Shown: positions 6,150 to 56,076 of the stretch, in pieces
How positions within the stretch are numbered: position 1 is the first letter of the stretch
Layout: every line of letters begins with the position of its first letter
Assembly (NCBI RefSeq): GCF_009914755.1
Contig: NC_060937.1
Strand: one strand, 5' to 3'
DNA: 64,000 nt
Origin: the human T2T-CHM13v2.0 reference genome, Homo sapiens
Notes under the pieces: generated by a model
Told to the model about the DNA's origin: nothing
The model's database searches: none
The model's input: only the letters and a program-made list of their open reading frames with translations
Made by a program: the position numbers and the translations under genes

Positions 6150-6332
6150 TAGATACTCCTCAACTTACAATTGTCTTATGTCTTAATGAACTCATCCTAA
6201 ATTGAAAATATTGTAAGTCTAAAACGCATTTAATATATTTAACCTACTGAATATCATGACTTAGCCTCACCTACCTTAAACTTCCTCAGAACACTTACTT
6301 TATCCTACAATTGGGCAAACTCATCTACCACA
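6150..6332 (+). mobile_element. MER47/Tigger5-like DNA transposon fragment, truncated by the ACRO array
   Basis: 'agatactcctcaacttacaa..gacttagcctcacctaccttaaac..cctacaattgggcaaactcatcta' matches the recalled MER47 consensus. Confidence 0.7.
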
Positions 6333-7441
6333 AGGGCTGGGGGTGAAGACGTGAGAGAGACTGGCGAGGATCTCACTGAGGTCTGTGAGTTTGTAGGTGT
6401 TTCTGGGGTGTGGGGTACAGACTCCCGCTGAAATCTGGGCGTAGTTGGAGAGTAGCTGGGACAGACAGGAGAGTCATGGGTGGCTGGGGGTGAGCTGCTG
6501 GATGATGGCAGTAAGAACATATGGTACATTATTGATGAATGAGGTGACTGTGAAGAATCTCCAGAGGAGGACACGGGAGAACACAATGACATGAGTGACT
6601 GTCCTGCTTGGTTAGGAAAGGGAAACGTAAAGTTGTGGAATTCTGTTGATGATGGATGTGAGAGTGGTGAAGCCCTGCGGGATGATGTAGAGGACTTCCA
6701 CATCCCTGGTGAGGAGCTGCCCCTTGGGTCTGAGTTTCTGGGAGGGGAGAGGGAGAAGCTGGGTGAGGCAGGCATGAATCTTGAGGAGTCAGGGCTGGGG
6801 GACCGCTCATATTCTCCCGAGACCTGTGAGTCTCTGGGGGACTCCTGGGTGCATGGGGCTGACTCCCGCAGGAACCTGGGGATGGCTGGAGAGTAACTGG
6901 GAGCCACAGGAGGGTCCCTGAGGCCTGGGGGTGAAGAGATGCAAGACACAGGGGTGGAGCAGCGTGAGGCTCGTGAGTTTGTAGGTGATTCCTGGGTGTG
7001 GGGGGCTGACTCCAGCTGAAATCTGGGGTTGTTTGGAGAGTAGCTGGGAGACACAGGAGACCCCCCGAGAGCTGGGGGTGAGCTGCTGGGTGATGGCAGT
7101 AAGAACATGTGGTATATTATTGATGAACGTGGGGACTCTGAGGAGTCCTCAGAGGAGGACACGGCAGAGCCCAATGGCTTCATTGATTGCCCATCACGGT
7201 GAGGACAGGGAAATGGGAGCTTGTGGGATTCTGGTGATGACAGAGGTGAGTGTGGTGAAGCCCTAGGGGATGGTGAATGGTAGTTCCGGATCCCTGGTGA
7301 GGAGCTTCCCCTTAAGCCTGAGTTTCTGAGAGGGGAGAGGGAGAAGCTGGGTGAGGCTCGCATGGACCTTGGGGTGTCCGTGCTGGGGGACCGTTCATAA
7401 GAAGAGCCAGACAAGACCCTACTGTTCTTAGGTGCAGACAT
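6305..7441 (-). pseudogene. 3'-truncated copy of the ACRO ORF (378 aa), reading into MER47
   Basis: Near-identical N-terminus. Diverges after 'SSPPAL' at ~6332 and ends 'VVDEFAQL*' in flanking transposon DNA. Confidence 0.75.
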
Positions 7442-7502
7442 GATTAGGAAACCTGCAGCTCCCAGGGGCCCCCACTAATGTTCTAACTCGCAGAAGGAAG
7501 GA

Positions 7503-7516
7503 GTGTGTGTGCGTGT

Positions 7517-7548
<32 letters not shown>

Positions 7549-7567
7549 TTGTGTGTGTGCGGTGTGA
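7503..7567. repeat. (GT)n/(GC)n microsatellite in the ORF leader (also 13838-13903, 20156-20217)
   Basis: Direct dinucleotide repeat, followed by (GACA)n. Confidence 0.95.
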
Positions 7568-7752
7568 GGTATGGGCCCCTTAAGGAAATGGAAATCAACC
7601 AACCAATGGGACAGACAGACAGACAGACAGACAGAGATTCACTTGCCCAAGTGTTCTGTCCTGTCCTCTGAATCCGCTTTCAAGTCGCAAGACGCTGTGA
7701 GCTCCAAGTCCACGCAGAGTCCGCCAAACGCTCCGGCCGCTGATCCGCTCCG

Positions 7753-7828
7753 CGAAGATCTGAGTACAGGCCAGCCAGGGTGGGTTTAAATAGCCTCGGG
7801 CGCAGCCTAGCAGCGGAAAGGGCGGAGC
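7753..7828 (-). promoter_or_regulatory. Same predicted core promoter, upstream of the truncated copy
   Basis: TATTTAAA 7792-7785, Inr A at 7761, GGGCGG 7820-7825. Confidence 0.55.
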
Positions 7829-8329
7829 TTCACTCCTCCTTTCCATCAGTCACCCCCAACTTTCCCAGGCTACACCTCGTAGGAAACTGTTCTCCTGCTT
7901 TGATTTCATGCGCCACCTTTGGGACAATCTAAGAACTTACAGGTTTTCTTGGCCAGATTTATTAGGAGTTGTATGCACTGAAACACTGAAAACCAACTAG
8001 TGGTTCTGTGCTTCCCACGTTGTGGTTTTGACACCAGCAGCATCCTTGCCACAATCAAACCCCGGAGATCCGCAGATCTGTGTTGTAACAAGACCTCCCC
8101 CTGACCCTGATGCATGGCAGTTGAAGAAGTCTTTCCGTGTAAGCGAAAAGACTTTGAAGAAAAGGTGGAGATATGCGTAGTATAAACATTCTTTGGCTCT
8201 GGAACCACGTAGAGACTTGGGAGCCAGTTGGGTGGAGCATTCGTTGGATGAGGGTGCTCGGGTTAGGAATATCAAGGTGTTTCTCCAGATAATCCAATCA
8301 TCTAATTAAGATTCCAGTTATGCTCATCT

Positions 8330-10239: not shown

Positions 10240-10590
10240 CCCTGTGGGTAAGCCTACAATGTGGATGAATCTTGAAAATATTGTGCTACGTGTTATGTCA
10301 GTCATAGCAGCTCACCTATTGTGCAATTCCGTTTATAGGAAATGTCCACAATATGGAAATCTATGCATATGGGATTGATCGCACTAGGTAGTTGCTACCT
10401 AGGGCTGAGGGTCAGGGAGAGGGTTTGAGACAGAATGAGGAGTGACTAATGTCTACAGGGTCTTTCTCTGGTCGGGGGTGATAAGACGTTTTACAATGGA
10501 TTGCGAATTAAAATTGAATGTGCACAACCACAGGTATACTAAAAGCCACTCAATTCATGACCTTTAATGGGGGAATCTTACGTGGCGTAG
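10240..10590 (+). mobile_element. Old L1M (L1MB-like) 3' fragment in each unit
   Basis: 'atgtggatgaatcttgaaaatattgtgcta..attccgtttataggaaatgtcc..tactaaaagccactcaatt' resembles L1M 3' UTRs. Confidence 0.65.
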
Positions 10591-10794: not shown

Positions 10795-13776
10795 TCACCG
10801 GTAGTGTGGCCCGCAGGGACGCCGACCTGCTGGAGCGTCGTGCCAGCATGGGCTGTGGCAACCACGTGGGCCAGCAGGAGGTTCCCGCTGCACAGCTGTG
10901 GGGTGAGGATAGACTGGGTGGTGATATCGGCCATTACAGGGGCCTCTTCTGCTGGCAAGAGTGTGACAGTAGCAAGTAGATGGACAGGCCTGCGTGTGAG
11001 GACGGAATGCAGGAGGGGTTCTTGTGCGCCTGGGTGTGGGGCCCTCACGGGAACCGTGGAGAAATGGCCAGGTAACTGCGTCATGTGGGCTAGTAGATTG
11101 GCCAGGGCTTCGAACTGAAGGACGATAACGGGGAGTAGCTGTCAGGCCCTGGGAGTGCCTGAGTGTAAGTGGAGATGGGTTTGGGGTCACTGAGGGATGC
11201 GTGGGAGCCATCCCTGTATAGGTACAGGTCATAGGGAGATAGTCTCGTGAGGCCTGTGAGTGTCTAGGGTTGTCCTGGGTGCCTGGGGCTGACTGTGGCA
11301 GAAATCTGGGGAAGGCTGGAGAGAAGCTGGGAGACCCAGGAGAGTCCCTGAAGGCAGGGGGTGAAGAGGTGAAAGAAATGGGGGAGGGTTGCAGTAAGGT
11401 CCGTGAGTTTGTAGGTGATTCCTGGGTGCGGGAAGCTGACTCCAGGTGAAATCTGGAGATGGTTGGAGAGTAGCTGAGAGAGACAGAAGAGTCCCTGAGG
11501 GCTGGGGGTGAGAACATGAGGGAGACGGGGGAGTAAGTCAGTGAAATTCGTGAGTTCGGTGGTGTATCGTGGGTGCCTGGAACTGACTCCAGCTGGAATC
11601 TAGAGAAGTTTTGAGAGTAGCTGAAGGAGACACCAGAGTCCCTGTGGGCTGAGGGCAAAGACCTGAGACAGACCAGGGAGGACCTCAGTGAAGTCTGTGA
11701 GTCTGTAGGTGATTCCGGAGTGTGGGAGGCTGACTCCCGCTGAAATCTGGGCGTGGTGGGAGAGTAGCTGGGACAGACAGGAGAGTCCCAGGGGTCTGGG
11801 GGTGAAGACGTGAGAGAGACTGGGGAGTAACTCAGTGAAATTGCTGAGTTGGTTGGTGATACCTGGGTGCCTGGAACTGACCCCCGCTGAAATCTGGGCA
11901 TGGTTGGAGAGTAGCTGGGACACACAGGAGAGTCCCTGAGGGCTGGGGGTGAAGACATGAGCGAGACCGGGGAGTAACTGAGTGAAACTGGTGAGTTTGG
12001 TGGTGACTCCGGGGTGCCTGGAACTGACTCCAGCTGAAATGTGGGCGTGGTTGGAGAGTAGCTGGGACAGACAGGAGAGTCCCTGAGGACTGGTGAAGAC
12101 ATGAGAGAGACTGGAGAGTAATTGAGTGAAATTGGTGAGTTTGGTGGTGATTCCTGGGTGCCTGGAACTGACTCCCGCTGAAGTGTGGGCGTGGTTGGAG
12201 AGTAGCTGGGACACACAGGAGAGTCCCTGAGGGTTGGAGATAAAGACGTGCTAGAGACTGAGGAGTAACTGAGTGAAATTGGTGAGTTTGGTGGTGATTC
12301 CGGGGTGCCTGGAACGGACTCCAGCTGAAATGTGGGCGTGGTTGGAGAGTAGCTGGGACAGACGGGAGAGTCCCTGAGGGATGGTGAAGACATGAGAGAG
12401 ACTGGGGAGTAACGCAGTGAAATTGGTGAGTTTGGTGGTGATTTCTGGGTGCCTGCAACGGACTCCCGCTGAAGTGTGGGCGTGCTTGGAGAGTAGCTGG
12501 GACAGACAGGCGAGTCCCTGAGGGTTGGAGATAAAGACGTGCTGGAGACTGGGGAGTAACTCAGTGAAAGTGGTGGGCTTGGTGGTGATCCCAGGGTTCC
12601 TGGAACTGACCCGCGCTGAAATGTGGGCGTGGTTGGAGAGTAGCTGGGACAGACTGGAGGGTCCGTAAGGGCTGGGGGTGAAGACGTGAGAGAGACTGGC
12701 GAGGATCTCACTGAGGTCTGTGAGTTTGTAGGTGTTTCTGGGGTGTGGGGTACAGACTCCCGCTGAAATCTGGGCGTAGTTGGAGAGTAGCTGGGACAGA
12801 CAGGAGAGTCATGGGTGGCTGGGGTTGAGCTGCTGGATGATGGCAGTAAGAACATATGGTACATTATTGATGAATGAGGTGACTGTGAAGAATCTCCAGA
12901 GGAGGACACGGGAGAACACAATGACATGAGTGACTGTCCTGCTTGGTTAGGAAAGGGAAACGTAAAGTTGTGGAATTCTGTTGATGATGGATGTGAGAGT
13001 GGTGAAGCCCTGCGGGATGATGTAGAGGACTTCCACATCCCTGGTGAGGAGCTGCCCCTTGGGTCTGAGTTTCTGGGAGGGGAGAGGGAGAAGCTGGGTG
13101 AGGCAGGCATGAATCTTGAGGAGTCAGGGCTGGGGGACCGCTCATATTCTCCCGAGACCTGTGAGTCTCTGGGGGACTCCTGGGTGCATGGGGCTGACTC
13201 CCGCAGGAACCTGGGGATGGCTGGAGAGTAACTGGGAGCCACAGGAGGGTCCCTGAGGCCTGGGGGTGAAGAGATGCAAGACACAGGGGTGGAGCAGCGT
13301 GAGGCTCGTGAGTTTGTAGGTGATTCCTGGGTGTGGGGGCCTGACTCCAGCTGAAATCTGGTGTTGTTTGGAGAGTAGCTGGGAGACACAGGAGACCCCC
13401 CGAGAGCTGGGGGTGAGCTGCTGGGTGATGGCAGTAAGAACATGTGGTATATTATTGATGAACGTGGGGACTCTGAGGAGTCCTCAGAGGAGGACACGGC
13501 AGAGCCCAATGGCTTCATTGATTGCCCATCACGGTGAGGACAGGGAAATGGGAGCTTGTGGGATTCTGGTGATGACAGAGGTGAGTGTGGTGAAGCCCTA
13601 GGGGATGGTGAATGGTAGTTCCGGATCCCTGGTGAGGAGCTTCCCCTCAAGCCTGAGTTTCTGAGAGGGGAGAGGGAGAAGCTGGGTGAGGCTCGCATGG
13701 ACCTTGGGGTGTCCGTGCTGGGGGACCGTTCATAAGAAGAGCCAGACAAGACCCTACTGTTCTTAGGTGCAGACAT
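10795..13776 (-). CDS. Putative 993-aa Ser/Pro/Thr-rich protein made of Pol II CTD-like heptads (ACRO1-encoded ORF, full copy 1)
   Basis: Uninterrupted ATG-TGA ORF of 2982 bp; A at -3; first ATG after the predicted TSS; 49-aa repeats 'DSPVCPS YSPTTPT FQLESVP GTPESPP NSPISLS YSPVSLM SSPPALR'. Translation not demonstrated. Confidence 0.6.
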   Translation of the reverse strand: MSAPKNSRVLSGSSYERSPSTDTPRSMRASPSFSLSPLRNSGLRGSSSPGIRNYHSPSPRASPHSPLSSPESHKLPFPCPHRDGQSMKPLGSAVSSSEDSSESPRSSIIYHMFLLPSPSSSPPALGGSPVSPSYSPNNTRFQLESGPHTQESPTNSRASRCSTPVSCISSPPGLRDPPVAPSYSPAIPRFLRESAPCTQESPRDSQVSGEYERSPSPDSSRFMPASPSFSLSPPRNSDPRGSSSPGMWKSSTSSRRASPLSHPSSTEFHNFTFPFPNQAGQSLMSLCSPVSSSGDSSQSPHSSIMYHMFLLPSSSSSTPATHDSPVCPSYSPTTPRFQRESVPHTPETPTNSQTSVRSSPVSLTSSPPALTDPPVCPSYSPTTPTFQRGSVPGTLGSPPSPPLSLSYSPVSSTSLSPTLRDSPVCPSYSPSTPTLQRESVAGTQKSPPNSPISLRYSPVSLMSSPSLRDSPVCPSYSPTTPTFQLESVPGTPESPPNSPISLSYSSVSSTSLSPTLRDSPVCPSYSPTTPTLQRESVPGTQESPPNSPISLNYSPVSLMSSPVLRDSPVCPSYSPTTPTFQLESVPGTPESPPNSPVSLSYSPVSLMSSPPALRDSPVCPSYSPTMPRFQRGSVPGTQVSPTNSAISLSYSPVSLTSSPPDPWDSPVCPSYSPTTPRFQRESASHTPESPTDSQTSLRSSLVCLRSLPSAHRDSGVSFSYSQNFSRFQLESVPGTHDTPPNSRISLTYSPVSLMFSPPALRDSSVSLSYSPTISRFHLESASRTQESPTNSRTLLQPSPISFTSSPPAFRDSPGSPSFSPAFPRFLPQSAPGTQDNPRHSQASRDYLPMTCTYTGMAPTHPSVTPNPSPLTLRHSQGLTATPRYRPSVRSPGQSTSPHDAVTWPFLHGSREGPTPRRTRTPPAFRPHTQACPSTCYCHTLASRRGPCNGRYHHPVYPHPTAVQREPPAGPRGCHSPCWHDAPAGRRPCGPHYR
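11300..12830. repeat. ACRO1 147-bp satellite, homogeneous core (also ~17620-19150 and ~23980-25510)
   Basis: Landmark 'agagtagctg' (variant 'agagaagctg' at the first site) at 11320, 11467, 11614, 11761, 11908, 12055, 12199, 12346, 12490, 12637, 12784; spacings are 147 or 144. Confidence 0.9.
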
Positions 13777-14084
13777 GATTAGGAAACCTGCAGCTCCCAG
13801 GGGCCCCCACTAATGTTCTAACTCGCAGAAAGAAGGAGTGTGTGTGCGTGTGTGCGCGTGCGTGTGTGTGTGTGTGTGTGTGTGCTTGTGTGTGTGCGGT
13901 GTGAGGTATGTGCCCCTTAAGAAAATGGAAATCAACCAACCAATGAGACAGAGAGACAGACAGACAGAGATTCACTTGCCCAAGTGTTCTGTCCTGTCCT
14001 CTGAATCCGCTTTCAAGTCGAAGACGCTGTGAGCTCCAAGTCCACGCAGAGTCCGCCAAACGCTCCGGCCGCTGATCCGCTCCG

Positions 14085-14160
14085 CGAAGATCTGAGTACA
14101 GGCCAGCCAGGGTGGGTTTAAATAGCCTCGGGCGCAGCCTAGCAGCGGAAAGGGCGGAGC
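14085..14160 (-). promoter_or_regulatory. Predicted Pol II core promoter of the ACRO ORF (GC box, TATA, Inr)
   Basis: Minus-strand TATTTAAA (14124-14117), Inr-like 'CTCAGAT' with A at 14093 (31 nt from the TATA start), GGGCGG at 14152-14157, and a CpG-rich surround. Confidence 0.6.
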
Positions 14161-17112
14161 TTCACTCCTCCTTTCCATCAGTCACCCCCAACTTTCCCAG
14201 GCTACACCTCGTAGGAAACTGTTCTCCTGCTTTGATTTCATGCGCCACCTTTGGGACAATCTAAGAACTTACAGGTTTTCTTGGCCAGATTTATTAGGAG
14301 TTGTATGCACTGAAACACTGAAAACCAACTAGTGGTTCTGTGCTTCCCACGTTGTGGTTTTGACACCAGCAGCATCCTTGCCACAATCAAACCCCGGAGA
14401 TCCGCAGATCTGTGTTGTAACAAGACCTCCCCCTGACCCTGAAGCATGGCAGTTGAAGAAGTCTTTCCGTGTAAGCGAAAAGACTTTGAAGAAAAGGTGG
14501 AGATATGCGTTGTATAAACATTCTTTTGCTCTGGAACCACGTAGAGACTTGGGAGCCAGTTGGGTGGAGCATTCGTTGGATGAGGGTGCTCGGGTTAGGA
14601 ATATCAAGGTGTTTCTCCAGATAATCCAATCATCTAATTAAGATTCCAGTTATGCTCATCTGTTTTAAAATTCCGTTTGGGTAAATTCTTTTAGTCAGAC
14701 TGAGAATGGCAAAGCCTCAACCCCAATTTCCAGGGAGGGTGGAGAGCCTCAGGTGGAGTTGATCACCAATAGCCTATGGTTTAACCCATCATGCCTATAG
14801 AATGAGGTCTCCATCAAAACCCTAAAGGACTGGGTTCAGAGAGCTTCTGGATGACACTTCCTGGAAGGTAGTGCACCCCTCCCCGCATGCCGGGCCCCAC
14901 ATTTATTTCTGAACCTTGTGCAATGTCCGCTAAAATACAACGGCAAATGTAAGTGTTTCCCTGCGTGCTGTGAGCTCTTCCAGCAAATGAATGCAACTAA
15001 ATCTGGGAGTGGTGGCAACCTGATTTTAGCCAGTTGCTGAGAAGCACAGGTAAAACAACGTAGGGCTTCCCATTGTTATTGGTGTGGGAGGCCTGTCTGG
15101 CGGGACTCGGCCCTTTGGAATCTAATGCTATGTCCCGGTAGATAGCGTCACCATTGAATTAGAAGACACACATATGTGGAGAATAATCTTTCTGGTCATT
15201 TACTGCATGTCATATTTACAATATGTAATCAAATTCTTTATCCTGACCTTATGGCACCTGGGTTTAGGACCATGATTTGAACCAAACGTTGGTCTGTCAC
15301 TTTCTGAGTTTGAAACTTTATTTTGCCTTTAGCGTTTTGCTATTGCTTTTTCGTTTTCTTTTGTTTCGTTTCGTTTCTAAGTTCTGGGGTATATGTGCAG
15401 GATGTGCAGATTTGTTACTAAGGTAAACGTGTGCCATGGTGGTTTGCTGCACCTGTCAACCCGTCACCGAGGTATTAAGCCCAGCATGCAGTAGCTGTTT
15501 TTCTTAACGCTCTGCCTCCCGAAAGGCCCCAGTGTGTGTTGTTCCCCTTCCTGTGTCCATGGGATCTCACTTTTCAGCTCCCATTATAAGTGAGAAGGTG
15601 GCGTTTGGTTTTCTTTCCCTGGATTAGTTTGCTGACGATAATGACCACACATCACCACTGTTTTTGTTTTTTAGTATAAAGAGTAGTATTTTATTGAATA
15701 AGATTTGCTCACAGAAAAATAAGCTTAAATCTACAATGAATGCCAGACCCTACAGCAGAAAGCAATTTTCTCACTTTTCCACACACAATGGTTCCTACTA
15801 AGTGAAAAAAAAGCCATAAAATTTCATTCACAAATGTACTACTCTGTCTCAAAACATCTCACGTAATCATGCACTGTACTAAAGCCATCAGATCAGTTCT
15901 TCAGTCAGGTTAAAGAAGTATCCCTCTAATAACTGACTTTTATAATGCTATCAATATCCACTCCCAATCAGTCTGCCATTGTTAGTGGTGTACAGCATTA
16001 CTGAATACAACGGAATTGATGACGCCCATATCCACAGACAAACCGTGACTTATGATGGTTTGATTTATGATTTTTCAACGTTATGATGGGTTTATTGGAA
16101 TATTAGATTCGTTTCTGAGTTACACTGGGTTTATGAGTATGCGACCCTACACTCCAGAAACAGCTGTATATGGAAAAACAGGAGTACCTAATAAAAATAT
16201 GCTTAGTGACTTGGGATAAACCAATAGATGTTCACAAGTGATGGAGAGCCGTGAAAGAGAGATAGCGGTAAATAGTTACAATAACACAATTTTCCTGCAC
16301 CTGTCGAGGATTTCCCCCAAAAAACGCAGAATGTGGGATGCACCTAAGGCATATGAAAGAGAGAGGGCAGAAGGAGTAAGAGAGAAATAGGAGGAAGGAA
16401 GGAAGGAAGCAAGGAAGAAAGGAAGGAAGGAAAGAAGGAAGGTAGGACGGAAGGAAGGAAGGAAGGAAGGAAGGAAGGAAGGAAGGAAGGAAGGAAAGAA
16501 GGATGAAAGGAAGGAGAAAACACCGGTGTTACTAAAACCCCCCAAAAAATGGTTTCCCCCTGTGGGTAAGCCTACAATGTGGATGAATCTTGAAAATATT
16601 GTGCTACGTGTTATGTCAGTCATAGCAGCTCACCTATTGTGCAATTCCGTTTATAGGAAATGTCCACAATATGGAAATCTATGCATATGGGATTGATCGC
16701 ACTAGGTAGTTGCTACCTAGGGCTGAGGGTCAGGGAGAGGGTTTGAGACAGAATGAGGAGTGACTAATGTCTACAGGGTCTTTCTCTGGTCGGGGGTGAT
16801 AAGACGTTTTACAATGGATTGCGAATTAAAATTGAATGTGCACAACCACAGGTATACTAAAAGCCACTCAATTCATGACCTTTAATGGGGGAATCTTACG
16901 TGGCGTAGTCTCATGGAGACCACGGCAGACATAGTGAGAGAGAAAAAGGTGAGTAAATATCTGAAACGGAGGCAGAAACAGAGAGAATGAAAAGCCCTGT
17001 GAATGGAAGGGAGAGCGAAAAGGGAAAATGGTCCTATTTACAAATGACAGATGTGAAACTGGGGTTCACATCAACAGTGTCACTGCCAGGAAGGAGGGTC
17101 ATGCTAGCCATG

Positions 17113-20094
17113 TCACCGGTAGTGTGGCCCGCAGGGACGCCGACCTGCTGGAGCGTCGTGCCAGCATGGGCTGTGGCAACCACGTGGGCCAGCAGGAGGT
17201 TCCCGCTGCACAGCTGTGGGGTGAGGATAGACTGGGTGGTGATATCGGCCATTACAGGGGCCTCTTCTGCTGGCAAGAGTGTGACAGTAGCAAGTAGATG
17301 GACAGGCCTGCGTGTGAGGACGGAATGCAGGAGGGGTTCTTGTGCGCCTGGGTGTGGGGCCCTCACGGGAACCGTGGAGAAATGGCCAGGTAACTGCGTC
17401 ATGTGGGCTAGTAGATTGGCCAGGGCTTCGAACTGAAGGACGATAACGGGGAGTAGCTGTCAGGCCCTGGGAGTGCCTGAGTGTAAGTGGAGATGGGTTT
17501 GGGGTCACTGAGGGATGCGTGGGAGCCATCCCTGTATAGGTACAGGTCATAGGGAGATAGTCTCGTGAGGCCTGTGAGTGTCTAGGGTTGTCCTGGGTGC
17601 CTGGGGCTGACTGTGGCAGAAATCTGGGGAAGGCTGGAGAGAAGCTGGGAGACCCAGGAGAGTCCCTGAAGGCAGGGGGTGAAGAGGTGAAAGAAATGGG
17701 GGAGGGTTGCAGTAAGGTCCGTGAGTTTGTAGGTGATTCCTGGGTGCGGGAAGCTGACTCCAGGTGAAATCTGGAGATGGTTGGAGAGTAGCTGAGAGAG
17801 ACAGAAGAGTCCCTGAGGGCTGGGGGTGAGAACATGAGGGAGACGGGGGAGTAAGTCAGTGAAATTCGTGAGTTCGGTGGTGTATCGTGGGTGCCTGGAA
17901 CTGACTCCAGCTGGAATCTAGAGAAGTTTTGAGAGTAGCTGAAGGAGACACAAGAGTCCCTGTGGGCTGAGGGCAAAGACCTGAGAGAGACCAGGGAGGA
18001 CCTCAGTGAAGTCTGTGAGTCTGGAGGTGATTCCAGAGTGTGGGAGGCTGACTCCCGCTGAAATCTGGGCATGGTGGGAGAGTAGCTGGGACAGACAGGA
18101 GAGTCCCAGGGGGCTGGGGGTGAAGACATGAGAGAGACTGGGGAGTAATTCAGTGAAATTGCTGAGTTGGTTGGTGATACCTGGGTGCCTGGAACTGACC
18201 CCCGCTGAAATCTGGGCATGGTTGGAGAGTAGCTGGGACACACAGGAGAGTCCCTGAGGGCTGGGGGTGAAGACATGAGCGAGACCGGGGAGTAACTGAG
18301 TGAAACTGGTGAGTTTGGTGGTGACTCCGGGGTGCCTGGAACTGACTCCAGCTGAAATGTGGGAGTGGTTGGAGAGTAGCTGGGACAGACAGGAGAGTCC
18401 CTGAGGACTGGTGAAGACATGAGAGAGAGTGGAGAGTAATTGAGTGAAATTGGTGAGTTTGGTGGTGATTCCTGGGTGCCTGGAACTGACTCCCGCTGAA
18501 GTGTGGGCGTGTTTGGAGAGTAGCTGGGACAGACAGGCGAGTCCCTGAGGGTTGGAGATAAAGACGTGCTAGAGACTGAGGAGTAACTGAGTGAAATTGG
18601 TGAGTTTGGTGGTGATTCCGGGGTGCCTGGAACGGACTCCAGCTGAAATGTGGGCGTGGTTGGAGAGTAGCTGGGACAGACGGGAGAGTCCCTGAGGGAT
18701 GGTGAAGACATGAGAGAGACTGGGGAGTAACGCAGTGAAATTGGTGAGTTTGGTGGTGATTTCTGGGTGCCTGCAACGGACTCCCGCTGAAGTGTGGGCG
18801 TGCTTGGAGAGTAGCTGGGACAGACAGGCGAGTCCCTGAGGGTTGGAGATAAAGACGTGCTGGAGACTGGGGAGTAACTCAGTGAAAGTGGTGGGCTTGG
18901 TGGTGATCCCAGGGTTCCTGGGACTGACCCGCGCTGAAATGTGGGCGTGGTTGGAGAGTAGCTGGGACAGACTGGAGGGTCCGTAAGGGCTGGGGGTGAA
19001 GACGTGAGAGAGACTGGTGAGGATCTCACTGAGGTCTGTGAGTTTGTAGGTGTTTCTGGGGTGTGGGGTACAGACTCCCGCTGAAATCTGGGCGTAGTTG
19101 GAGAGTAGCTGGGACAGACAGGAGAGTCATGGGTGGCTGGGGGTGAGCTGCTGGATGATGGCAGTAAGAACATATGGTACATTATTGATGAATGAGGTGA
19201 CTGTGAAGAATCTCCAGAGGAGGACACAGGAGAACACAATGACATGAGTGACTGTCCTGCTTGGTTAGGAAAGGGAAACGTAAAGTTGTGGAATTCTGTT
19301 GATGATGGATGTGAGAGTGGTGAAGCCTTGCGGGATGATGTAGGGGACTTCCACATCCCTGGTGAGGAGCTGCCCCTTGGGTCTGAGTTTCTGGGAGGGG
19401 AGAGGGAGAAGCTGGGTGAGGCAGGCATGAATCTTGAGGAGTCAGGGCTGGGGGACCGCTCATATTCTCCCGAGACCTGTGAGTCTCTGGGGGACTCCTG
19501 GGTGCATGGGGCTGACTCCCGCAGGAACCTGGGGATGGCTGGAGAGTAACTGGGAGCCACAGGAGGGTCCCTGAGGCCTGGGGGTGAAGAGATGCAAGAC
19601 ACAGGGGTGGAGCAGCGTGAGGCTCGTGAGTTTGTAGGTGATTCCTGGGTGTGGGGGGCTGACTCCAGCTGAAATCTGGGGTAGTTTGGAGAGTAGCTGG
19701 GAGACACAGGAGACCCCCCGAGAGCTGGGGGTGAGCTGCTGGGTGATGGCAGTAAGAACATGTGGTATATTATTGATGAACGTGGGGACTCTGAGGAGTC
19801 CTCAGAGGAGGACACGGCAGAGCCCAATGACTTCATTGATTGCCCATCACGGTGAGGACAGGGAAATGGGAGCTTGTGGGATTCTGGTGATGACAGAGGT
19901 GAGTGTGGTGAAGCCCTAGGGGATGGTGAATGGTAGTTCCGGATCCCTGGTGAGGAGCTTCCCCTTAAGCCTGAGTTTCTGAGAGGGGAGAGGGAGAAGC
20001 TGGGTGAGGCTCGCATGGACCTTGGGGTGTCCGTGCTGGGGGACCGTTCATAAGAGGAGCCAGACAAGACCCTACTGTTCTTAGGTGCAGACAT
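17113..20094 (-). CDS. Putative 993-aa CTD-like repeat protein (full copy 2)
   Basis: Same length as copy 1, roughly 17 aa substitutions by eye, no stops or frameshifts. Confidence 0.6.
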   Translation of the reverse strand: MSAPKNSRVLSGSSYERSPSTDTPRSMRASPSFSLSPLRNSGLRGSSSPGIRNYHSPSPRASPHSPLSSPESHKLPFPCPHRDGQSMKSLGSAVSSSEDSSESPRSSIIYHMFLLPSPSSSPPALGGSPVSPSYSPNYPRFQLESAPHTQESPTNSRASRCSTPVSCISSPPGLRDPPVAPSYSPAIPRFLRESAPCTQESPRDSQVSGEYERSPSPDSSRFMPASPSFSLSPPRNSDPRGSSSPGMWKSPTSSRKASPLSHPSSTEFHNFTFPFPNQAGQSLMSLCSPVSSSGDSSQSPHSSIMYHMFLLPSSSSSPPATHDSPVCPSYSPTTPRFQRESVPHTPETPTNSQTSVRSSPVSLTSSPPALTDPPVCPSYSPTTPTFQRGSVPGTLGSPPSPPLSLSYSPVSSTSLSPTLRDSPVCPSYSPSTPTLQRESVAGTQKSPPNSPISLRYSPVSLMSSPSLRDSPVCPSYSPTTPTFQLESVPGTPESPPNSPISLSYSSVSSTSLSPTLRDSPVCPSYSPNTPTLQRESVPGTQESPPNSPISLNYSPLSLMSSPVLRDSPVCPSYSPTTPTFQLESVPGTPESPPNSPVSLSYSPVSLMSSPPALRDSPVCPSYSPTMPRFQRGSVPGTQVSPTNSAISLNYSPVSLMSSPPAPWDSPVCPSYSPTMPRFQRESASHTLESPPDSQTSLRSSLVSLRSLPSAHRDSCVSFSYSQNFSRFQLESVPGTHDTPPNSRISLTYSPVSLMFSPPALRDSSVSLSYSPTISRFHLESASRTQESPTNSRTLLQPSPISFTSSPPAFRDSPGSPSFSPAFPRFLPQSAPGTQDNPRHSQASRDYLPMTCTYTGMAPTHPSVTPNPSPLTLRHSQGLTATPRYRPSVRSPGQSTSPHDAVTWPFLHGSREGPTPRRTRTPPAFRPHTQACPSTCYCHTLASRRGPCNGRYHHPVYPHPTAVQREPPAGPRGCHSPCWHDAPAGRRPCGPHYR

Positions 20095-20403
20095 GATTAG
20101 GAAACCTGCAGCTCCCAGGGGCCCCCACTAATGTTCTAACTCGCAGAAGGAAGGAGTGTGTGTGCGTGTGTGCGTGTGCGTGTGTATGTGTGTGTGTGTT
20201 TGTGTGTGTGCGGTGTGAAGTATGGGCCCCTTAAGGAAATGGAAATCAACCAACCAGTGGGACAGACAGACAGACAGTCAGACAGAGATTCACTTGCCCA
20301 AGTGTTCTGTCCTGTCCTCTGAATCCGCTTCCAAGTCGCAAGACGCTGTGAGCTCCAAGTCCACGCAGAGTCCGCCAAACGCTCCGGCCGCTGATCCGCT
20401 CCG

Positions 20404-20480
20404 CGAAGATCTGAGTACAGGCCAGCCAGGGTGGGTTTAAATAGCCTCGGGCGCAGCCTAGCAGCGGAAAGGGCGGAGCT
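20404..20480 (-). promoter_or_regulatory. Same predicted core promoter, upstream of full copy 2
   Basis: TATTTAAA 20443-20436, Inr A at 20412, GGGCGG 20471-20476. Confidence 0.6.
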
Positions 20481-23475
20481 TCACTCCTCCTTTCCATCAG
20501 TCACCCCCAAGTTTTCCAGGCTACACCTCGTAGGAAACTGTTGTCCTGCTTTGATTTCATACGCCACCTTTGGGACAATCTAAGAACTTACAGGTTTTCT
20601 TGGCCAGATTTATTAGGAATTGTATGCACTGAAACACTGAAAACCAACTAGTGGTTCTGTGCTTCCCACGTTGTGGTTTTGACACCAGCAGCATCCTTGC
20701 CACAATCAAACCCCGGAGATCCGCAGATCTGTGGTGTAACAAGACCTCCCCCTGACCCTGATGCATGGCAGTTGAAGAAGTCTTTCCGTGTAAGCGAAAA
20801 GACTTTGAAGAAAAGGTGGAGATATGCGTTGTATAAACATTCTTTTGCTCTGGAACCACGTAGAGACTTGGGAGCCAGTTGGGTGGAGCATTCGTTGGAT
20901 GAGGGTGCTCGGGTTAGGAATATCAAGGTGTTTCTCCAGATAATCCAATCATCTAATTAAGATTCCAGGTATGCTCATCCGTTTTAAAATTCCGTTTGGG
21001 TAAATTCTTTTAGTCAGACTGAGAATGGCAATGCCTCAACCCCAATTTCCAGGGAGGGTGGAGAGCCTCAGGTGGAGTTGATCACCAATAGCCTATGGTT
21101 TAACCCATCATGCCTATAGAATGAGGTCTCCATCAAAACCCAAAAGGACTGGGTTCAGAGAGCTACTGGATAACACTTCCTGGAAGGTAGTGCGCCCCTC
21201 CCTGCATGCCGGGCCCCACCTTTATTTCTGAACTTTGTGCAATGTCCGCTAAAATACAACGGCAAATGTAAGTGTTTCCCTGCGTGCTGTGAGCTCTTCC
21301 AGCAAATGAATGCAACTAAATCTGGGAGTGGTGGCAACCTGATTTATAGCCAGTTGCTGAGAAGCACAGGTAAAACAACGTACGGCTTCCCATTGTTATT
21401 GGTGTGGGAGGCCTGTCTGGCGGGACTCGGCCCTTTGGAATCTAATGCTATGTCCCGGTAGATAGCGTCACCATTGAATTAGAAGACACACATATGTGGA
21501 GAATAATCTTTCTGGTCATTTACTGCATGTCATATTTACAATATGTAATCAAATTCTTTATCCTGACCTTATGGCACCTGGGTTTAGGACCATGATTTGA
21601 ACCAAACGTTGGTCTGTCACTTTCTGAGTTTGAAACTTTATTTTGCCTTTAGCGTTTTGCTATTGCTTTTTCGTTTTCTTTTGTTTCGTTTCGTTTCTAA
21701 GTTCTGGGGTATATGTGCAGGATGTGCAGATTTGTTACTAAGGTAAACGTGTGCCATGGTGGTTTGCTGCACCTGTCAACCCGTCACCGAGGTATTAAGC
21801 CCAGCATGCAGTAGCTGTTTTTCTTAACGCTCTGCCTCCCGAAAGGCCCCAGTGTGTGTTGTTCCCCTTCCTGTGTCCATGGGATCTCACTTTTCAGCTC
21901 CCATTATAAGTGAGAAGGTGGCGTTTGGTTTTCTTTCCCTGGATTAGTTTGCTGACGATAATGACCACACATCACCACTGTTTTTGTTTTTTAGTATAAA
22001 GAGTAGTATTTTATTGAATAAGATTTGCTCACAGAAAAATAAGCTTAAATCTACAATGAATGCCAGACCCTACAGCAGAAAGCAATTTTCTCACTTTTCC
22101 ACACACAATGGTTCCTACTAAGTGAAAAAAAAGCCATAAAATTTCATTCACAAATGTACTACTCTGTCTCAAAACATCTCACGTAATCATGCACTGTACT
22201 AAAGCCATCAGATCAGTTCTTCAGTCAGGTTAAAGAAGTATCCCTCTAATAACTGACTTTTATAATGCTATCAATATCCACTCCCAATCAGTCTGCCATT
22301 GTTAATGGTGTACAGCATTACTGAATACAACGGAATTGATGTCGCCCATATCCACAGACAAACCGTGACTTATGATGGTTTGATTTATGATTTTTCAACG
22401 TTATGATGGGTTTATTGGAATATTAGATTCGTTTCTGAGTTACACTGGGTTTATGAGTATGCGACCCTACACTCCAGAAACAGCTGTATAAGGAAAAACA
22501 GGTGTACCTAATAAAAATATGCTTAGTGACTTGGGATAAACCAATAGATGTTCACAAGTGATGGAGAGCCGTGAAAGAGAGATAGCGGTAAATAGTTACA
22601 ATAACACAATTTTCCTGCACCTGTCGAGGATTTCCCCCAAAAAACGCAGAATGTGGGATGCACCTAAGGCATATGAAAGAGAGAGGGCAGAAGGAGTAAG
22701 AGAGAAATAGGAGGAAGGAAGGAAGGAAGCAAGGAAGAAAGGAAGGAAGGAAAGAAGGAAGGTAGGACGGAAGGAAGGAAGGAAGGAAGGAAGGAAGGAA
22801 GGAAAGAAGGAAGTTAGGACGGAAGGAAGGAAGGAAGGAAGGAAGGAAGGAAGGAAGGAAAGAAGGACGAAAGGAAGGAGCAAACACCGGTGTTACTAAA
22901 ACCCCCCAAAAAATGGTTTCCCCCTGTGGGTAAGCCTACAATGTGGATGAATCTTGAAAATATTGTGCTACGTGTTATGTCAGTCATAGCAGCTCACCTA
23001 TTGTGCAATTCCGTTTATAGGAAATGTCCACAATATGGAAATCTATGCATATGGGATTGATCGCACTAGGTAGTTGCTACCTAGGGCTGAGGGTCAGGGA
23101 GAGGGTTTGAGACAGAAGGAGGAGTGACTAATGTCTACAGCGTTTTTCTCTGGTCGGGGGTGATAAGACGTTTTACAATGGATTGCGAATTAAAATTGAA
23201 TGTGCACAACCACAGGTATACTAAAAGCCACTCAATTCATGACTTTTAATGGGGGAATCTTATGTGGCGCAGTCTTATGGAGACCACGGCAGACATAGTG
23301 AGAGAGAAAAAGGTGAGTAAATATCTGAAACGGAGGCAGAAACAGAGAGAATGAAAAGCCCTGTGAATGGAAGGGAGAGCGAAAAGGGAAAATGGTCCCA
23401 TTTGCAAATGACAGATGTGAAACTGGGGTTCACATCAACAGAGTCACTGCCAGGAGGAGGGTCATGCTAGCCATG

Positions 23476-26151
23476 TCACCGGTAGGGTGGCCCGCAGGGA
23501 CGCCGACCTGCTGGAGCTTCGTGCCAGCATGGGCTGTGGCAACCACGTGGGCCAGCAGGAGGTTCCCGCTGCACAGCTGTGGGGTGAGGATAGACTAGGT
23601 GGTGATATCGGCCATTACAGGGGCCTCTTCTGCTGGCAAGAGTGTGACAGTAGCAAGTAGATGGACAGGCCTGCGTGTGAGGACGGAATGCAGGAGGGGT
23701 TCTTGTGCGGCTGGGTGTGGGGCCCTCACGGGAACCGTGGAGAAATGGCCAGGTAACTGCGTCATGTGGGCTAGTAGATTGGCCAGGGCTTCGAACTGAA
23801 GGACGATAACGGGGAGTAGCTGTCAGGCCCTGGGAGTGCCTGAGTGTAAGTGGAGATGGGTTTGGGGTCACTGAGGGATGCGTGGGAGCCATCCCCGTAT
23901 AGGTACAGGTCATAGGGAGATAGTCTCGTGAGGCCTGTGAGTGTCTAGGGTTGTCCTGGGTGCCTGGGGCTGACTGTGGCAGAAATCTGGGGAAGGCTGG
24001 AGAGAAGCTGGGAGACCCAGGAGAGTCCCTGAAGGCAGGGGGTGAAGAGGTGAAAGAAATGGGGGAGGGTTGCAGTAAGGTCCGTGAGTTTGTAGGTGAT
24101 TCCTGGGTGCGGGAAGCTGACTCCAGGTGAAATCTGGAGATGGTTGGAGAGTAGCTGAGAGAGACAGAAGAGTCCCTGAGGGCTGGGGGTGAGAACATGA
24201 GGGAGACGGGGGAGTAAGTCAGTGAAATTCGTGAGTTCGGTGGTGTATCGTGGGTGCCTGGAACTGACTCCAGCTGGAATCTAGAGAAGTTTTGAGAGTA
24301 GCTGAAGGAGACACAAGAGTCCCTGTGGGCTGAGGGCAAAGACCTGAGAGAGACCAGGGAGGACCTCAGTGAAGTCTGTGAGTCTGTAGGTGATTCCGGA
24401 GTGTGGGAGGCTGACTCCCGCTGAAATCCGGGCGTGGTGGGAGAGTAGCTGGGACAGACAGGAGAGTCCCAGGGGCCTGGGGGTGAAGACATGAGAGAGA
24501 CTGGGGAGTAACTCAGTGAAATTGCTGAGTTGGTTGGTGATACCTGGGTGCCTGGAACTGACCCCCGCTGAAATCTGGGCATGGTTGGAGAGTAGCTGGG
24601 ACACACAGGAGAGTCCCTGAGGGCTGGTGGTGAAGACATGAGCGAGACCGGGGAGTAACTGAGTGAAACTGGTGAGTTTGGTGGTGACTCCGGGGTGCCT
24701 GGAACTGACTCCAGCTGAAATGTGGGCGTGGTTGGAGAGTAGCTGGGACAGACAGGAGAGTCCCTGAGGACTGGGGAAGACATGAGAGAGAGTGGAGGGT
24801 AATTGAGTGAAATTGGTGACTTTGGTGGTGATTCCTGGGTGCCTGGAACTGATTCCCGCTGAAGTGTGGGCGTGGTTGGAGAGTAGCTGGGACACACAGC
24901 AGAGTCCCTGAGGGTTGGAGATAAAGACGTGCTAGAGACTGAGGAGTAACTGAGTGAAATTGGTGAGTTTGGTGGTGATTCCGGGGTGCCTGGAACGGAC
25001 TCCAGCTGAAATGTGGGCGTGGTTGGAGAGTAGCTGGGACAGACGGGAGAGTCCCTGAGGGATGGTGAAGACATGAGAGAGACTGGGGAGTAACGCAGTG
25101 AAATTGGTGAGTTTGGTGGTGATTTCTGGGTGCCTGCAACGGACTCCCGCTGAAGTGTGGGCGTGCTTGGAGAGTAGCTGGGACAGACAGGCGAGTCCCT
25201 GAGGGTTGGAGATAAAGACGTGCTGGAGTCTGGGGAGTAACTCAGTGAAAGTGGTGGGCTTGGTGGTGATCCCAGGGTTCCTTGAACTGACCCGCGCTGA
25301 AATGTGGGCGTGGTTGGAGAGTAGCTGGGACAGACTGGAGGGTCCGTAAGGGCTGGGGGTGAAGACGTGAGAGAGACTGGCGAGGATCTCACTGAGGTCT
25401 GTGAGTTTGTAGGTGTTTCTGGGGTGTGGGGTACAGACTCCCGCTGAAATCTGGGCGTAGTTGGAGAGTAGCTGGGACAGACAGGAGAGTCATGGGTGGC
25501 TGAGAGTGAGCTGCTGGATGATGGCAGTAAGAACATATGGTGCATTATTGATGAATGAGGTGACTGTGAAGAATCTCCGGAGGACACGGGAGAACACAAA
25601 GACATGAGTGATTGTCCTGCTTGGTTAGGAAAGGGAAACGTAAATTGTGGAATTCTGTTGATGATGGATGTGAGAGTGGCGAAGCCCTGCGGGATGATGT
25701 AGGGGACTTCCACATCCCTGGTGAGGAGCTGCCCCTTGGGTCTGAGTTTCTGGGAGGGGAGAGGGAGAAGCTGGGTGAGGCAGGCATGAATCTTGAGGAG
25801 TCAGGGCTGGGGGACCGCTCATATTCTCCCGAGACCTGTGAGTCTCTGCGGGACTCCTGGGTGCATGGGGCTGACTCCCGCAGGAACCTGGGGATGGCTG
25901 GAGAGTAACTGGGAGCCACAGGAGGGTCCCTGAGGCCTGGGGTTGAAGAGATGCAAGACAGAGTGGTGGAGCAGCGTGAGTCTCGTGAGTTTGTAGGTGA
26001 TTCCTGGGTGTGGGGGGCTGACTCCAGCTGAAATCTGGGGTTGTTTGGAGAGTAGCTGGGAGGCACAGGAGACCCCCCGAGAGCTGGGGGTGAGATGCTG
26101 GGTGATGGCAGTAAGAACATGTGGTATATTATTGATGAACGTGGGGACTCT
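23476..26151 (-). pseudogene. 5'-truncated, frameshifted copy of the ACRO ORF
   Basis: Lacks promoter and ATG (array ends at 26151). 1-bp deletion at ~25644 ('cgtaaattg' vs 'cgtaaagttg') and 3-bp deletion at ~25578. Confidence 0.85.
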
Positions 26152-49300: not shown

Positions 49301-49945
49301 TGTTATGTGCGGGACAAATATTCAGAAACTCAAAGCAGTGTTCTCGAATCCTATGTGAGGGAGAATCATTTCGACCCATGTATCTGTGTTCTGGAATCCT
49401 ACATGAGGGAAAAACATTCAGAACCCAACAGGAGGAGTGTTCTGGAATCCTATGTGAAGTACAAATATTCAGATGACAGCAGGAGTGTTCTGAAATCCTA
49501 TGCGAGGAACAAACATTTAGACCACAGCAGTTGTGTTCGGGAATACTATATGAGGGACAAACCCTCAGACAATAGCACGAGTGTTCTGGAATCCTATGTG
49601 AGGTTCAGTCATTCATCCCCTCGTAGCAGTGTTCTGGAATCTTATGTGAGGGAGAAACACGCAGAACCCTGCAGCAATGTTCTGGAATCGTATGTCAGGG
49701 ACAATCATTCACACCACAGCTAAGGTGTTCTGGAATCCAACATGTGGGACAAACATTCAGACCCTCGTAGCATTGTTCTAGAATCCTATGTGAGGGAGAA
49801 ACATTCAGAAAACAGCAGAAGTGTTCTGGAGTCCTATGTGCGGGACAAACTTTCAGACCCTCGTAGCAGCGTTCTGGAATCCTATGTGAGGGCTAAATAT
49901 TAGACCCACATGGCAGTGTTCTGGATTCGTACGTGAGGGACATAT
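37369..49945 (+). repeat. CER (D22Z3-type) 48-bp satellite, left block
   Basis: Tandem 'gtgagggacaaacattcagaccctcgtagcagtgttctggaatcctat' monomers. Confidence 0.93.
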
Positions 49946-49952
49946 ACCCAGT

Positions 49953-55153
<5,201 letters not shown>

Positions 55154-56076
55154 AAAGAAGTAGACATAGGAGACTCCATTTTGTTCTGTACTAAGAAAAA
55201 TTATTCTGCCTTGAGATTCTGTTAATCTATGACCTTACCCCCAACCCCGTGCTCTCTGAAATATGTGCTGTGTCAAACTCAGGGTTAAATGGATTAAGTA
55301 TTGTGCAAGATGTGCTTTGTTAAACAGTTGCTTGAAGGCAGCATGCTCCTTAAGAGTCATCACTACTCCCTAATCTCAAGTACCCAGGGACACAAAAACT
55401 GCTGAAGGCCGCAGGGACCTCTGCTTAGGAAAGCCAGATATTGTCCAAGGTATATCCCCATGGGATAGTCTGAAATATGGCCTTATGGGAAGGGAAAGAC
55501 CTGACCGTCCCCCAGCCCGACAACCGTAAATGGTCTGTGCTGAGGAGGATTAGTATAAGAGGAAGGCATGTCTCTTGCAGTTGAGACAAGAGGAAGGCAT
55601 CTGTCTCCTGCCCGTCCATGGGCAATGGAATGTCTCGGTATAAAACCCGATTGTACGTCCCATCTACTGAGATAGGGAAAAAACGCCTTAGGGCTGGAGG
55701 TGGGACATGCGGGCAGCAATACTGCTTTGTAAAGCATTGAGATGTTTATGTGTATGCATATCTAAAAGCACAGCACTTGATTCTTTACCTTGTCTATGAT
55801 GCAAAGACCTTTGTTCACGTGTTTGTCTGCTGACCCTATCCCCACTATTGTCTTGTGACCCTGACACATCACCCTCTCGGAGAAACACCCACAAATGATC
55901 AATAAATACTAAGGGAACTCAGAGGCTGGCGGGATCCTCCATATGCTGAACGCTGGTTCCCTGGGTCCCCTTATTTCTTTCTCTATATTTTGTCTCTGTG
56001 TCTTTTTCTTTTCCATGTCTCTCATTCCACCTAACAAGAAAAACCCACAGGTGTGGAGGGGCAACCCACCCCTTCA

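What the first reader, a model, noticed from the sequence alone, without database searches (positions are those of the whole stretch)
10795..20094. ACRO1 'satellite' reads as a 993-aa protein of RNA Pol II CTD-like heptads: a candidate hidden multicopy gene
Seen: two adjacent units each hold a 2982-bp ATG-to-TGA ORF. The 147-bp monomer is 49 aa, exactly 7 heptads in register: DSPVCPS / YSPTTPT / FQLESVP / GTPESPP / NSPISLS / YSPVSLM / SSPPALR, mostly S/T2-P3 and often S/T5-P/L6. A distinct His/Cys/Arg/Pro-rich C-terminal tail follows. Established: the RPB1 CTD consensus is Y1S2P3T4S5P6S7, phosphorylated by CDK7/9/12. Inference: ACRO1 is the coding repeat of a tandemly amplified gene, either derived from or convergent on the POLR2A CTD. 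Its product would be a disordered, phosphorylatable CTD mimic or decoy. I recall that ACRO1 RNA has been linked to Pol II binding and CTD similarity before, so the novel part may be the complete gene structure.
Basis: partly seen in the sequence, partly recalled or inferred. Interest (0 to 1): 0.92.

Follow-up and report, generated by a model that had tools for sequence, protein, structure and literature searches.

The report
Hidden multicopy gene inside ACRO1 satellite
The 6-kb ACRO 'satellite' unit of human acrocentric chromosomes holds a 993-codon open frame with promoter, splice and poly(A)-like signals and has protein-level relatives as far away as rabbit, so it is likely an overlooked gene in roughly 200 copies, predicted to make a disordered, polymerase-tail-like protein in the early embryo, although no transcript of that strand or protein has been shown.

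Summary
Confirmed: two minus-strand 993-codon ORFs, one per 6.3-kb ACRO unit, with real 7-residue periodicity (40% identity to YSPTSPS in register, no exact heptad). The CTD likeness of ACRO1 is published (PMC7714431). I found no paper describing the gene. Each unit carries GC box, TATA box, an initiator 31 nt on, a predicted non-coding exon and 188-bp intron, first-ATG start, ATTAAA, and a DUX4-type site 0.5 kb upstream. About 227 starts exist in this genome; 24 of 30 close copies are fully open. Stops and frameshifts are modestly depleted (P 0.007-0.04), but amino-acid changes look near neutral (dN/dS 0.7-1). Relatives exist in marmoset and rabbit, sharing the repeat and a CPS(T/S)CYCH tail, so the family is older than primates, against the literature. 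[quoted passage not shown] Best reading: an old mammalian gene amplified as a macrosatellite, like DUX4 in D4Z4, likely expressed at embryonic genome activation as a disordered phosphorylatable protein. Strand-specific transcripts and peptides are missing, several monkey and dispersed human copies are broken, and the CTD-decoy role is inference only.

The parts
10795..13776 (-). 993-aa ORF, copy A, all in one exon: Ser/Pro-rich N-terminal part with a 196-aa internal duplication, about 11 ACRO1 monomers, Cys/His tail
17113..20094 (-). 993-aa ORF, copy B (17 aa differences from A)
11273..12810 (-). 147-bp ACRO1 array in copy A = 49-aa monomers of seven degenerate heptads
17591..19146 (-). 147-bp ACRO1 array in copy B
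10798..11079 (-). C-terminal Cys/His/Arg tail with CPSTCYCH motif conserved to rabbit; no confident fold
14117..14124 (-). TATA box (TATTTAAA), copy A; GC box at 14152-14159
13976..14093 (-). predicted non-coding exon 1 (118 nt) starting at an initiator-like CTCAGA whose A lies 31 nt from the TATA start
   Evidence: predicted from sequence
13788..13975 (-). predicted 188-bp GT-AG intron with TCTG and CA microsatellites; acceptor 11 nt before the ATG; polypyrimidine tract weak
   Evidence: predicted from sequence
10563..10568 (-). ATTAAA poly(A)-like signal 229 nt after the stop, copy A (copy B: 16881-16886)
14622..14632 (+). DUX4-type site TAATCCAATCA about 0.5 kb upstream of the TATA box, copy A (also 8290-8300 and 20941-20951)
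   Evidence: motif is one of the four tested flavours in PMC4730607
20436..20443 (-). TATA box of copy B; predicted start 20412, donor near 20293, acceptor near 20106
6305..7792 (-). 5' half of a third copy: promoter, intron and 378-codon truncated ORF that runs into unrelated DNA near 6330
23476..26150 (-). fourth copy lacking promoter and first ~100 codons, with a frameshift; 709-aa 3' ORF remains
14100..20420 (.). one whole 6.32-kb ACRO composite unit; neighbours 98.9% and 97.8% identical

Best explanation
Each 6.3-kb ACRO unit contains a 993-codon open frame with Pol II gene signals and is likely a copy of an old mammalian two-exon gene, amplified in apes as a macrosatellite and likely switched on by DUX4 at the 4-cell stage to make a predicted disordered, proline-directed-kinase substrate. 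Shown: the ORF, the signals, the copy number, the relatives. From print: ACRO1 RNA peaks at 4-cell and rises with DUX4. Inferred steps: (1) DUX4 binds the site 0.5 kb upstream and fires the TATA promoter; (2) a ~3.4-kb spliced, polyadenylated mRNA is made; (3) it is translated from the first ATG; (4) the ~100 S/T-P sites, arranged as degenerate CTD-like heptads, are phosphorylated by CDK/MAPK-type kinases, so the protein acts in bulk as a transient phospho-scaffold or sink for CTD kinases and readers, while the conserved Cys/His tail anchors it to a partner or binds metal. Selection would then act on keeping the frame open and on composition, not on exact residues. The published cis-acting Pol II stalling by ACRO1 RNA would help keep the gene silent in somatic cells. 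Odds: descends from a real protein-coding gene 0.85; still translated in humans 0.55; works through CTD-like phosphorylation 0.25.
For: Gene anatomy in correct order and spacing in 3 of 3 promoter-bearing units; the ORF's ATG is the first ATG after the TATA box, spliced or not; TATA plus initiator spacing occurs at 6 places in the window, 3 being these. 227 acceptor/ATG sites and 226 TATA sites in the genome, 0 in reversed controls. 24 of 30 close copies fully open, 2 with a late frameshift, 4 with a stop; 86 of 114 loci scored have a stop-free frame of 950 codons or more. Nonsense changes 3 against 8.2 expected among 214 unique alleles (P 0.037); 0 against 3.5-4.3 among 112 monomer alleles (P 0.007-0.017); 1 of 7 frame-breaking indels in the ORF, which is two thirds of the length compared (P 0.007). 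Relatives: marmoset 832 aa, 73% in the tail; rabbit 575 aa with repeats and CPSSCYCH; P0040, 38% over the whole short form with the same acceptor-ATG context. Intact 358-aa short form on contig 2 with a 98% relative elsewhere. DUX4-type site once per unit and nowhere else in 64 kb, kept as another consensus flavour in 5 of 5 dispersed copies checked, exact context in 164 places. Expression statements in PMC6545021, PMC5832720, PMC11467316, PMC8990217 (passages).
Against: No strand-specific transcript, ribosome or peptide data were available; the expression papers count reads on the repeat. Synonymous changes among recent copies are as neutral predicts (61 against 59); dN/dS is 0.67-0.90 between internal repeats and 0.89 against the contig-19 copy. 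A control frame in the monomer test is also somewhat stop-poor (P 0.05-0.10), and copies are not independent. 5 of 6 dispersed human copies read are broken. The Papio and Piliocolobus models stop near 290 aa after a frameshift, the titi models are fragments, and the marmoset model has an out-of-frame stretch and a shorter tail. Rabbit has 0 YSP and marmoset 5 against 17 in human. RefSeq annotates nothing here. No stable ACRO1 RNA in HeLa; 'ACRO' is absent from the text and 2 supplements of a DUX4 direct-RNA study. The DUX4 site is lost in 2 of 2 distal copies sampled from contigs 15 and 21. The splice acceptor has a weak pyrimidine tract.
Confidence: 0.55

Rival explanations
1. Fossil gene: the unit descends from a real mammalian gene, but the human copies are no longer under selection as proteins; a still-open copy was amplified recently and is carried along by concerted evolution of acrocentric short arms. 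Any RNA is non-coding or incidental.
For: Amino-acid change is near neutral; most dispersed human copies and several monkey models are broken; at about 1% divergence 40-70% of copies would stay open by chance; short arms homogenise repeats regardless of function (bioRxiv 10.64898/2025.12.22.696095, passages).
Against: Depletion of stops and frameshifts in both old and recent changes; promoter, exon 1 and ORF vary less than the upstream flank (0.07 against 0.11 alleles per base); the amplified lineage stayed open while the 7%-diverged contig-19 copy gained 3 stops.
Confidence: 0.3
2. The functional product is RNA: ACRO1 transcripts bind Pol II and stall it in cis, or help organise nucleolar or pericentric chromatin in cleavage embryos; the ORF is a leftover of origin from CTD-like coding DNA.
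For: ACRO1 RNA of the C/A-rich, CTD-coding sense was enriched 1029 to 1 in Pol II SELEX and blocks reporter elongation in cis (PMC7714431, results read).
Against: An RNA role does not predict selection against stops, a conserved Cys/His tail in rabbit, or a first-ATG start; SELEX used yeast Pol II and in vitro RNA. It can coexist with the coding model.
Confidence: 0.1
3. Chance ORF in a C-rich satellite whose 147-bp period is a multiple of three; no gene, past or present.
For: The consensus monomer is also stop-free in one other frame and has one stop in the third; the window's 48-bp satellite gives chance ORFs of 150-320 aa.
Against: About half the ORF lies outside the array; the non-repetitive tail is conserved to rabbit with invariant Cys, His, Arg and Asn; promoter, intron and poly(A) signals frame the ORF.
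Confidence: 0.05

Closest known systems
ACRO1 satellite / ACRE / ACRO_Comp 6-kb composite (PMC7714431; PMC2588610; bioRxiv 2021.07.12.451456; bioRxiv 2025.12.22.696095)
   Same: Same DNA: 147-bp monomer, 6-kb unit, arrays on acrocentrics and chromosomes 3 and 4. PMC7714431 already reports 23 of 49 identity of the translated monomer to the CTD and suggests origin from CTD mRNA.
   Different: Those papers treat it as a non-coding, primate-only repeat; PMC2588610 files it among megasatellites without genes. The passages read describe no long ORF, promoter, intron or non-primate relative. The primate-only claim rested on MegaBLAST.
DUX4 in D4Z4 and other macrosatellite-embedded genes (USP17, FAM90A, TAF11L; these three recalled, not from a call)
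   Same: One gene per tandem unit, coding part in a single exon, high and variable copy number, many broken copies, silent in soma, linked to cleavage-stage expression.
   Different: Here the named satellite is itself the coding repeat, the product has no known domain, and no protein is demonstrated.
POLR2A (RPB1) C-terminal domain
   Same: 7-residue period, S2-P3 and S5-P6 bias, same serine codon families at positions 2, 5 and 7, 56% DNA identity to the heptad consensus; best PDB sequence hits are RPB1 tails.
   Different: No exact YSPTSPS; Tyr in 17 of 70 heptads; 49-residue higher-order repeat; no polymerase domains; unique N-terminal part and Cys/His tail.
Automatic gene models named 'RPB1' or 'RPB1-like' in marmoset, Papio, Piliocolobus and rabbit; ESM Atlas cluster 'putative extensin-like' (70 members, 993 aa)
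   Same: These are the same family, so pipelines have predicted the protein before.
   Different: They are named by low-complexity similarity; I found no paper linking them to ACRO1 (search 'subunit RPB1-like': 9 listed, none mammalian by title).

Membership tests
ACRO1 satellite / ACRO composite | 147-bp monomer arrays of 1.3-2.4 kb inside a ~6-kb unit | tested here: met
   definition
ACRO1 satellite / ACRO composite | arrays on acrocentric short arms and chromosomes 3 and 4 | tested here: met
Protein-coding Pol II gene | promoter, splice and poly(A) signals in order around a long ORF | tested here: met
   (sequence signals only)
Protein-coding Pol II gene | selection against stops and frameshifts | tested here: met
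   P 0.007-0.04 in three tests; modest, copies not independent
Protein-coding Pol II gene | dN/dS clearly below 1 | tested here: not met
   0.67-0.90 for old duplications, about 1 for recent copies
Protein-coding Pol II gene | capped, spliced sense transcript and detectable protein | not testable with these tools
   only repeat-level expression in print
RPB1 / POLR2A family | RNA polymerase catalytic domains | tested here: not met
   no Pfam match above cut-off; PDB hits only to the tail
RPB1 / POLR2A family | tandem consensus YSPTSPS heptads | tested here: not met
   0 exact, 40% identity in register
CTD-derived sequence | DNA-level descent from the POLR2A CTD exon | tested here: inconclusive
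   real heptad ranks in the top 0.75% of all synonymous encodings, top 5% within its serine-codon class; no similarity outside the heptads
DUX4 target gene | consensus DUX4 site near the start | tested here: met
DUX4 target gene | DUX4 binding and induction of this transcript | not testable with these tools
   induction of ACRO1 RNA stated second-hand; primary paper not held
Macrosatellite-embedded multicopy gene (D4Z4/DUX4 type) | one whole transcription unit per tandem repeat | tested here: met
   227 starts and 226 TATA sites at unit spacing

The most novel reading that the evidence does not exclude
Human acrocentric short arms carry, beside the rDNA, a ~200-copy protein-coding gene that has been masked as satellite DNA. 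[quoted passage not shown] The family is at least as old as the primate-rabbit split and sharpened its CTD likeness and copy number in apes.
Probability: 0.22. Interest if true: 0.95.

Novelty: new variant of a known kind. Interest (0 to 1): 0.78.

Why it matters
If translated, this would be one of the highest-copy protein-coding genes in the human genome, on chromosome arms described as nearly devoid of coding genes, hidden by repeat masking and multi-mapping. It gives a concrete reason for published but unexplained facts: ACRO1 expression at the 4-cell stage, its induction by DUX4, its hypomethylation in sperm and its enrichment on ape acrocentrics. It is directly testable with existing embryo and FSHD long-read, Ribo-seq and proteomics data. 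Even as a fossil, it corrects the view that ACRO1 is a primate-only non-coding satellite and shows a satellite born from a gene's coding repeat.

Tried and rejected
Pfam gave no family for the human, marmoset, rabbit or other relatives, except IGFL at the N-terminus of P0047, probably a fused gene model. AlphaFold2 of the 166-residue tail with 9 sequences gave mean pLDDT 53, pTM 0.11, no usable fold, so no fold search was run. An apparent dN/dS near 10 in the N-terminal part between two copy types (1 synonymous, 23 non-synonymous) vanished over the whole ORF and all 30 copies, so positive selection is not claimed. Searching the genome with divergent relatives found no older human paralogue apart from ACRO copies; IGFL genes lie 1.6 Mb from the contig-19 cluster, so synteny is only a lead. 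Plasmodium-named hits (P0018, P0034) are near-identical to human sequence and were treated as contamination; low-scoring rows P0086 and P0091 are unrelated repeats and were dropped; many 'ena' rows look like frameshifted human reads and were not counted. A full census of all 227 copies and a search for intronless retrocopies were not done. The primary DUX4 embryo paper was not held. Literature searches: 'ACRO1' (32 of 38 listed); ACRO+composite+acrocentric+transcri (19); 'subunit RPB1-like' (49); DUX4+ACRO+satellite+4-cell (50); acrocentric+ACRO+open reading frame+CTD (72); long-read preimplantation terms (83, none); DUX4+HSATII+ACRO1 (88); CTD-like+heptad+decoy+ZGA (98). None showed a paper on this ORF, but subscription journals and bioRxiv supplements were not searchable.
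Full report
OBSERVATION. The two ORFs are real, on the minus strand, at 10795-13776 and 17113-20094, 993 aa each, in adjacent 6.32-kb units 98-99% identical. The other five frames have 12-93 stops. The array is about 10.5 copies of 147 bp at about 80% match; 8 of 10 core monomers are 49 aa and 2 are 48 aa. The protein is 23% Ser and 18% Pro with 100 S/T-P sites. Seven-residue periodicity survives a control that permutes columns within the monomer (0.225 against 0.115; 40% against 24% identity to YSPTSPS; 0 of 5000 permutations), but there is no exact heptad.

GENE ANATOMY (sequence signals; function predicted). Reading the minus strand of copy A: DUX4-type site (14622-14632), GC box (14152), TATTTAAA (14124-14117), an initiator-like CTCAGA with its A 31 nt from the TATA start (14093), a 118-nt exon, donor GTGAAT, a 188-bp intron, acceptor CAG 11 nt before the ATG, the ORF, and ATTAAA 229 nt after the stop. 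The ORF's ATG is the first ATG after the TATA box in 3 of 3 promoter-bearing units, with or without splicing. TATA-initiator spacing of this kind occurs at 6 places in the window, 3 of them these. The DUX4-type motif occurs 3 times in 64 kb, once per unit, 0.44 expected; it is the CC flavour tested in PMC4730607 (passages). Dispersed copies on contigs 19 and 2 carry the TC flavour at the same place (5 of 5 checked); 2 of 2 distal copies sampled from contigs 15 and 21 have lost it. The primer positions in PMC2588610 (passages) place the promoter in the non-transposon part of the unit and the motif at the edge of the MER21 element (inference).

COPY NUMBER AND INTEGRITY. The genome has 227 matches to the acceptor/ATG motif and 226 to the TATA motif, none in reversed controls; only the first 100 of each were listed. 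Arrays lie on contigs 3, 4, 13, 14, 15, 21 and 22, with dispersed copies on 1, 2, 19 and 20 and a cluster of four promoters on 19. Of 30 loci fetched (the best of 40 scored among 886 candidates, two being the window's own), 24 are fully open, 2 have a late frameshift and 4 a stop. Of 114 loci scored, 86 have a stop-free frame of at least 950 codons. Both samples favour close matches. Of 6 dispersed copies read, 5 are broken; one on contig 2 is an intact 358-aa short form, and a 98%-identical whole relative exists in another assembly.

SELECTION. Among 214 unique ORF alleles in the 30 copies, synonymous changes match neutrality (61 against 59) while nonsense changes are fewer (3 against 8.2, P 0.037). 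Among 112 unique monomer alleles none makes an in-frame stop (3.5-4.3 expected, P 0.007-0.017); the control frames give P 0.05-0.10 and 0.37-0.44. One of 7 frame-breaking indels outside microsatellites falls in the ORF, two thirds of the length compared (P 0.007; events counted by hand). dN/dS is 0.76-0.90 between monomers, 0.67-0.81 for the 196-aa duplication and 0.89 against the contig-19 copy, which has 3 stops. So the frame seems protected while residues drift. That fits a low-complexity disordered protein, but also a recently dead gene; copies share history, so the P values are soft.

RELATIVES. The tail finds a marmoset protein of 832 aa, 73% identical, named RPB1 in UniRef/nr. The short form finds Papio and Piliocolobus 'RPB1-like' and titi models, all truncated or fragmentary. 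A profile search found 5 proteins among 8000 scored, including a 575-aa rabbit protein, also named RPB1, that aligns at 35% over 584 columns and shares the repeat and ACPS(T/S)CYCH tail. Unnamed P0040 is 38% identical over the whole short form, has a single monomer and the same acceptor-ATG context; P0093, P0052, P0075 and P0079 are further divergent pieces. Seven tail columns are invariant in 9 sequences. The family therefore predates primates, against PMC7714431 and the ape acrocentric preprint; the former used MegaBLAST (supplement passages). The ESM Atlas has a 70-member, 993-aa cluster automatically named 'putative extensin-like', probably this protein's own. YSP counts are 17 in human, 5 in marmoset, 1 in P0040 and 0 in rabbit: the conserved features are S/P richness and the tail, not the CTD heptad.

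RELATION TO THE CTD. In 28 POLR2A heptads Ser2 and Ser5 are mostly TCN and Ser7 mostly AGY; in ACRO1 they are TCN 45 of 45, TCN 39 of 39 and AGY 14 of 16. The monomer consensus is 56% identical to the POLR2A heptad, in the top 0.75% of all synonymous encodings and the top 5% within that codon class. Nothing outside the heptads aligns to the 3-kb POLR2A stretch. Descent from a CTD fragment is plausible, not shown.

LITERATURE. PMC7714431 (abstract, introduction, results, passages of discussion and methods, supplement passages): ACRO1 RNA binds Pol II and stalls it in cis; monomer 23 of 49 identical to CTD; 'open reading' does not occur and 'ORF' only for LINE1; no stable RNA in HeLa. PMC6545021 (passages): ACRO1 peaks at 4-cell, in data the authors describe as poly(A) pre-selected. 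PMC5832720 (passage): hypomethylated in spermatogonia and sperm, expression rises in early embryo. PMC11467316, PMC8990217 and bioRxiv 2025.12.22.696056 (passages): DUX4 raises ACRO1 RNA, citing a paper not held here. PMC2588610 (passages): unit filed under megasatellites without genes. bioRxiv 2025.12.22.696095 (section 5, passages): ACRO is the repeat most specific to ape acrocentrics; no ORF mentioned. bioRxiv 2021.07.12.451456 and 2024.07.31.605654, PMC6581058 (passages): nothing on coding. PMC8120133 (passages, 2 supplements): no 'ACRO'. Preprint supplements, subscription papers and current Ensembl/CAT/RefSeq models at other copies were not visible and could hold a prior description.

MECHANISM AND VERDICT. 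Most likely an old mammalian two-exon gene whose internal 49-codon repeat expanded and whose whole unit was amplified on ape acrocentric arms, in the manner of DUX4 in D4Z4; likely DUX4-driven at embryonic genome activation; product predicted disordered (tail pLDDT 53; no Pfam family) and heavily phosphorylatable. Descent from a coding gene 0.85, present translation 0.55, CTD-type decoy action 0.25. It is not a member of the RPB1 family. The CTD likeness is known and automatic models exist in other species; the link between ACRO1, a whole gene, a DUX4 site and non-primate relatives was not found in the searches listed. Interest 0.78.

Noticed in passing
window ~50000-56000: HERV-K pol and env frames, broken into several pieces, sit inside a 48-bp satellite array (37401-49942 and 56077-64000); matches the annotated LOC124907012.
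   Followed up: no
window 37401-64000: The 48-bp satellite yields chance ORFs of 150-320 aa on both strands, a useful caution for ORFs in satellites.
   Followed up: no
L032 (G000:C2:161739300-161743900): Intact 358-aa short form of the gene with promoter, intron and DUX4-type site, outside any array; a unique-mapping copy that would be the easiest to test for expression. A 98% relative (P0005) is whole too.
   Followed up: partly
G000:C19:47232221-47284787: Cluster of four promoters, three tandem and one inverted, 87-91% identical to the array copies; the two read are broken. Candidate ancestral locus, 1.6 Mb from the IGFL genes; P0047 joins an IGFL domain to an ACRO-like repeat.
   Followed up: partly
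G000 contigs 15, 21, 22 distal arrays: Open frames of 1050-1580 codons show copy-number variation of the monomer in frame; two sampled distal copies have lost the DUX4-type site.
   Followed up: partly
P0018, P0034: Proteins named as Plasmodium ovale, one as RPB1, are near-identical to human ACRO sequence and look like host contamination.
   Followed up: no
window 19-1759: 76-bp tandem repeat, 23 copies at 70% match, not examined.
   Followed up: no
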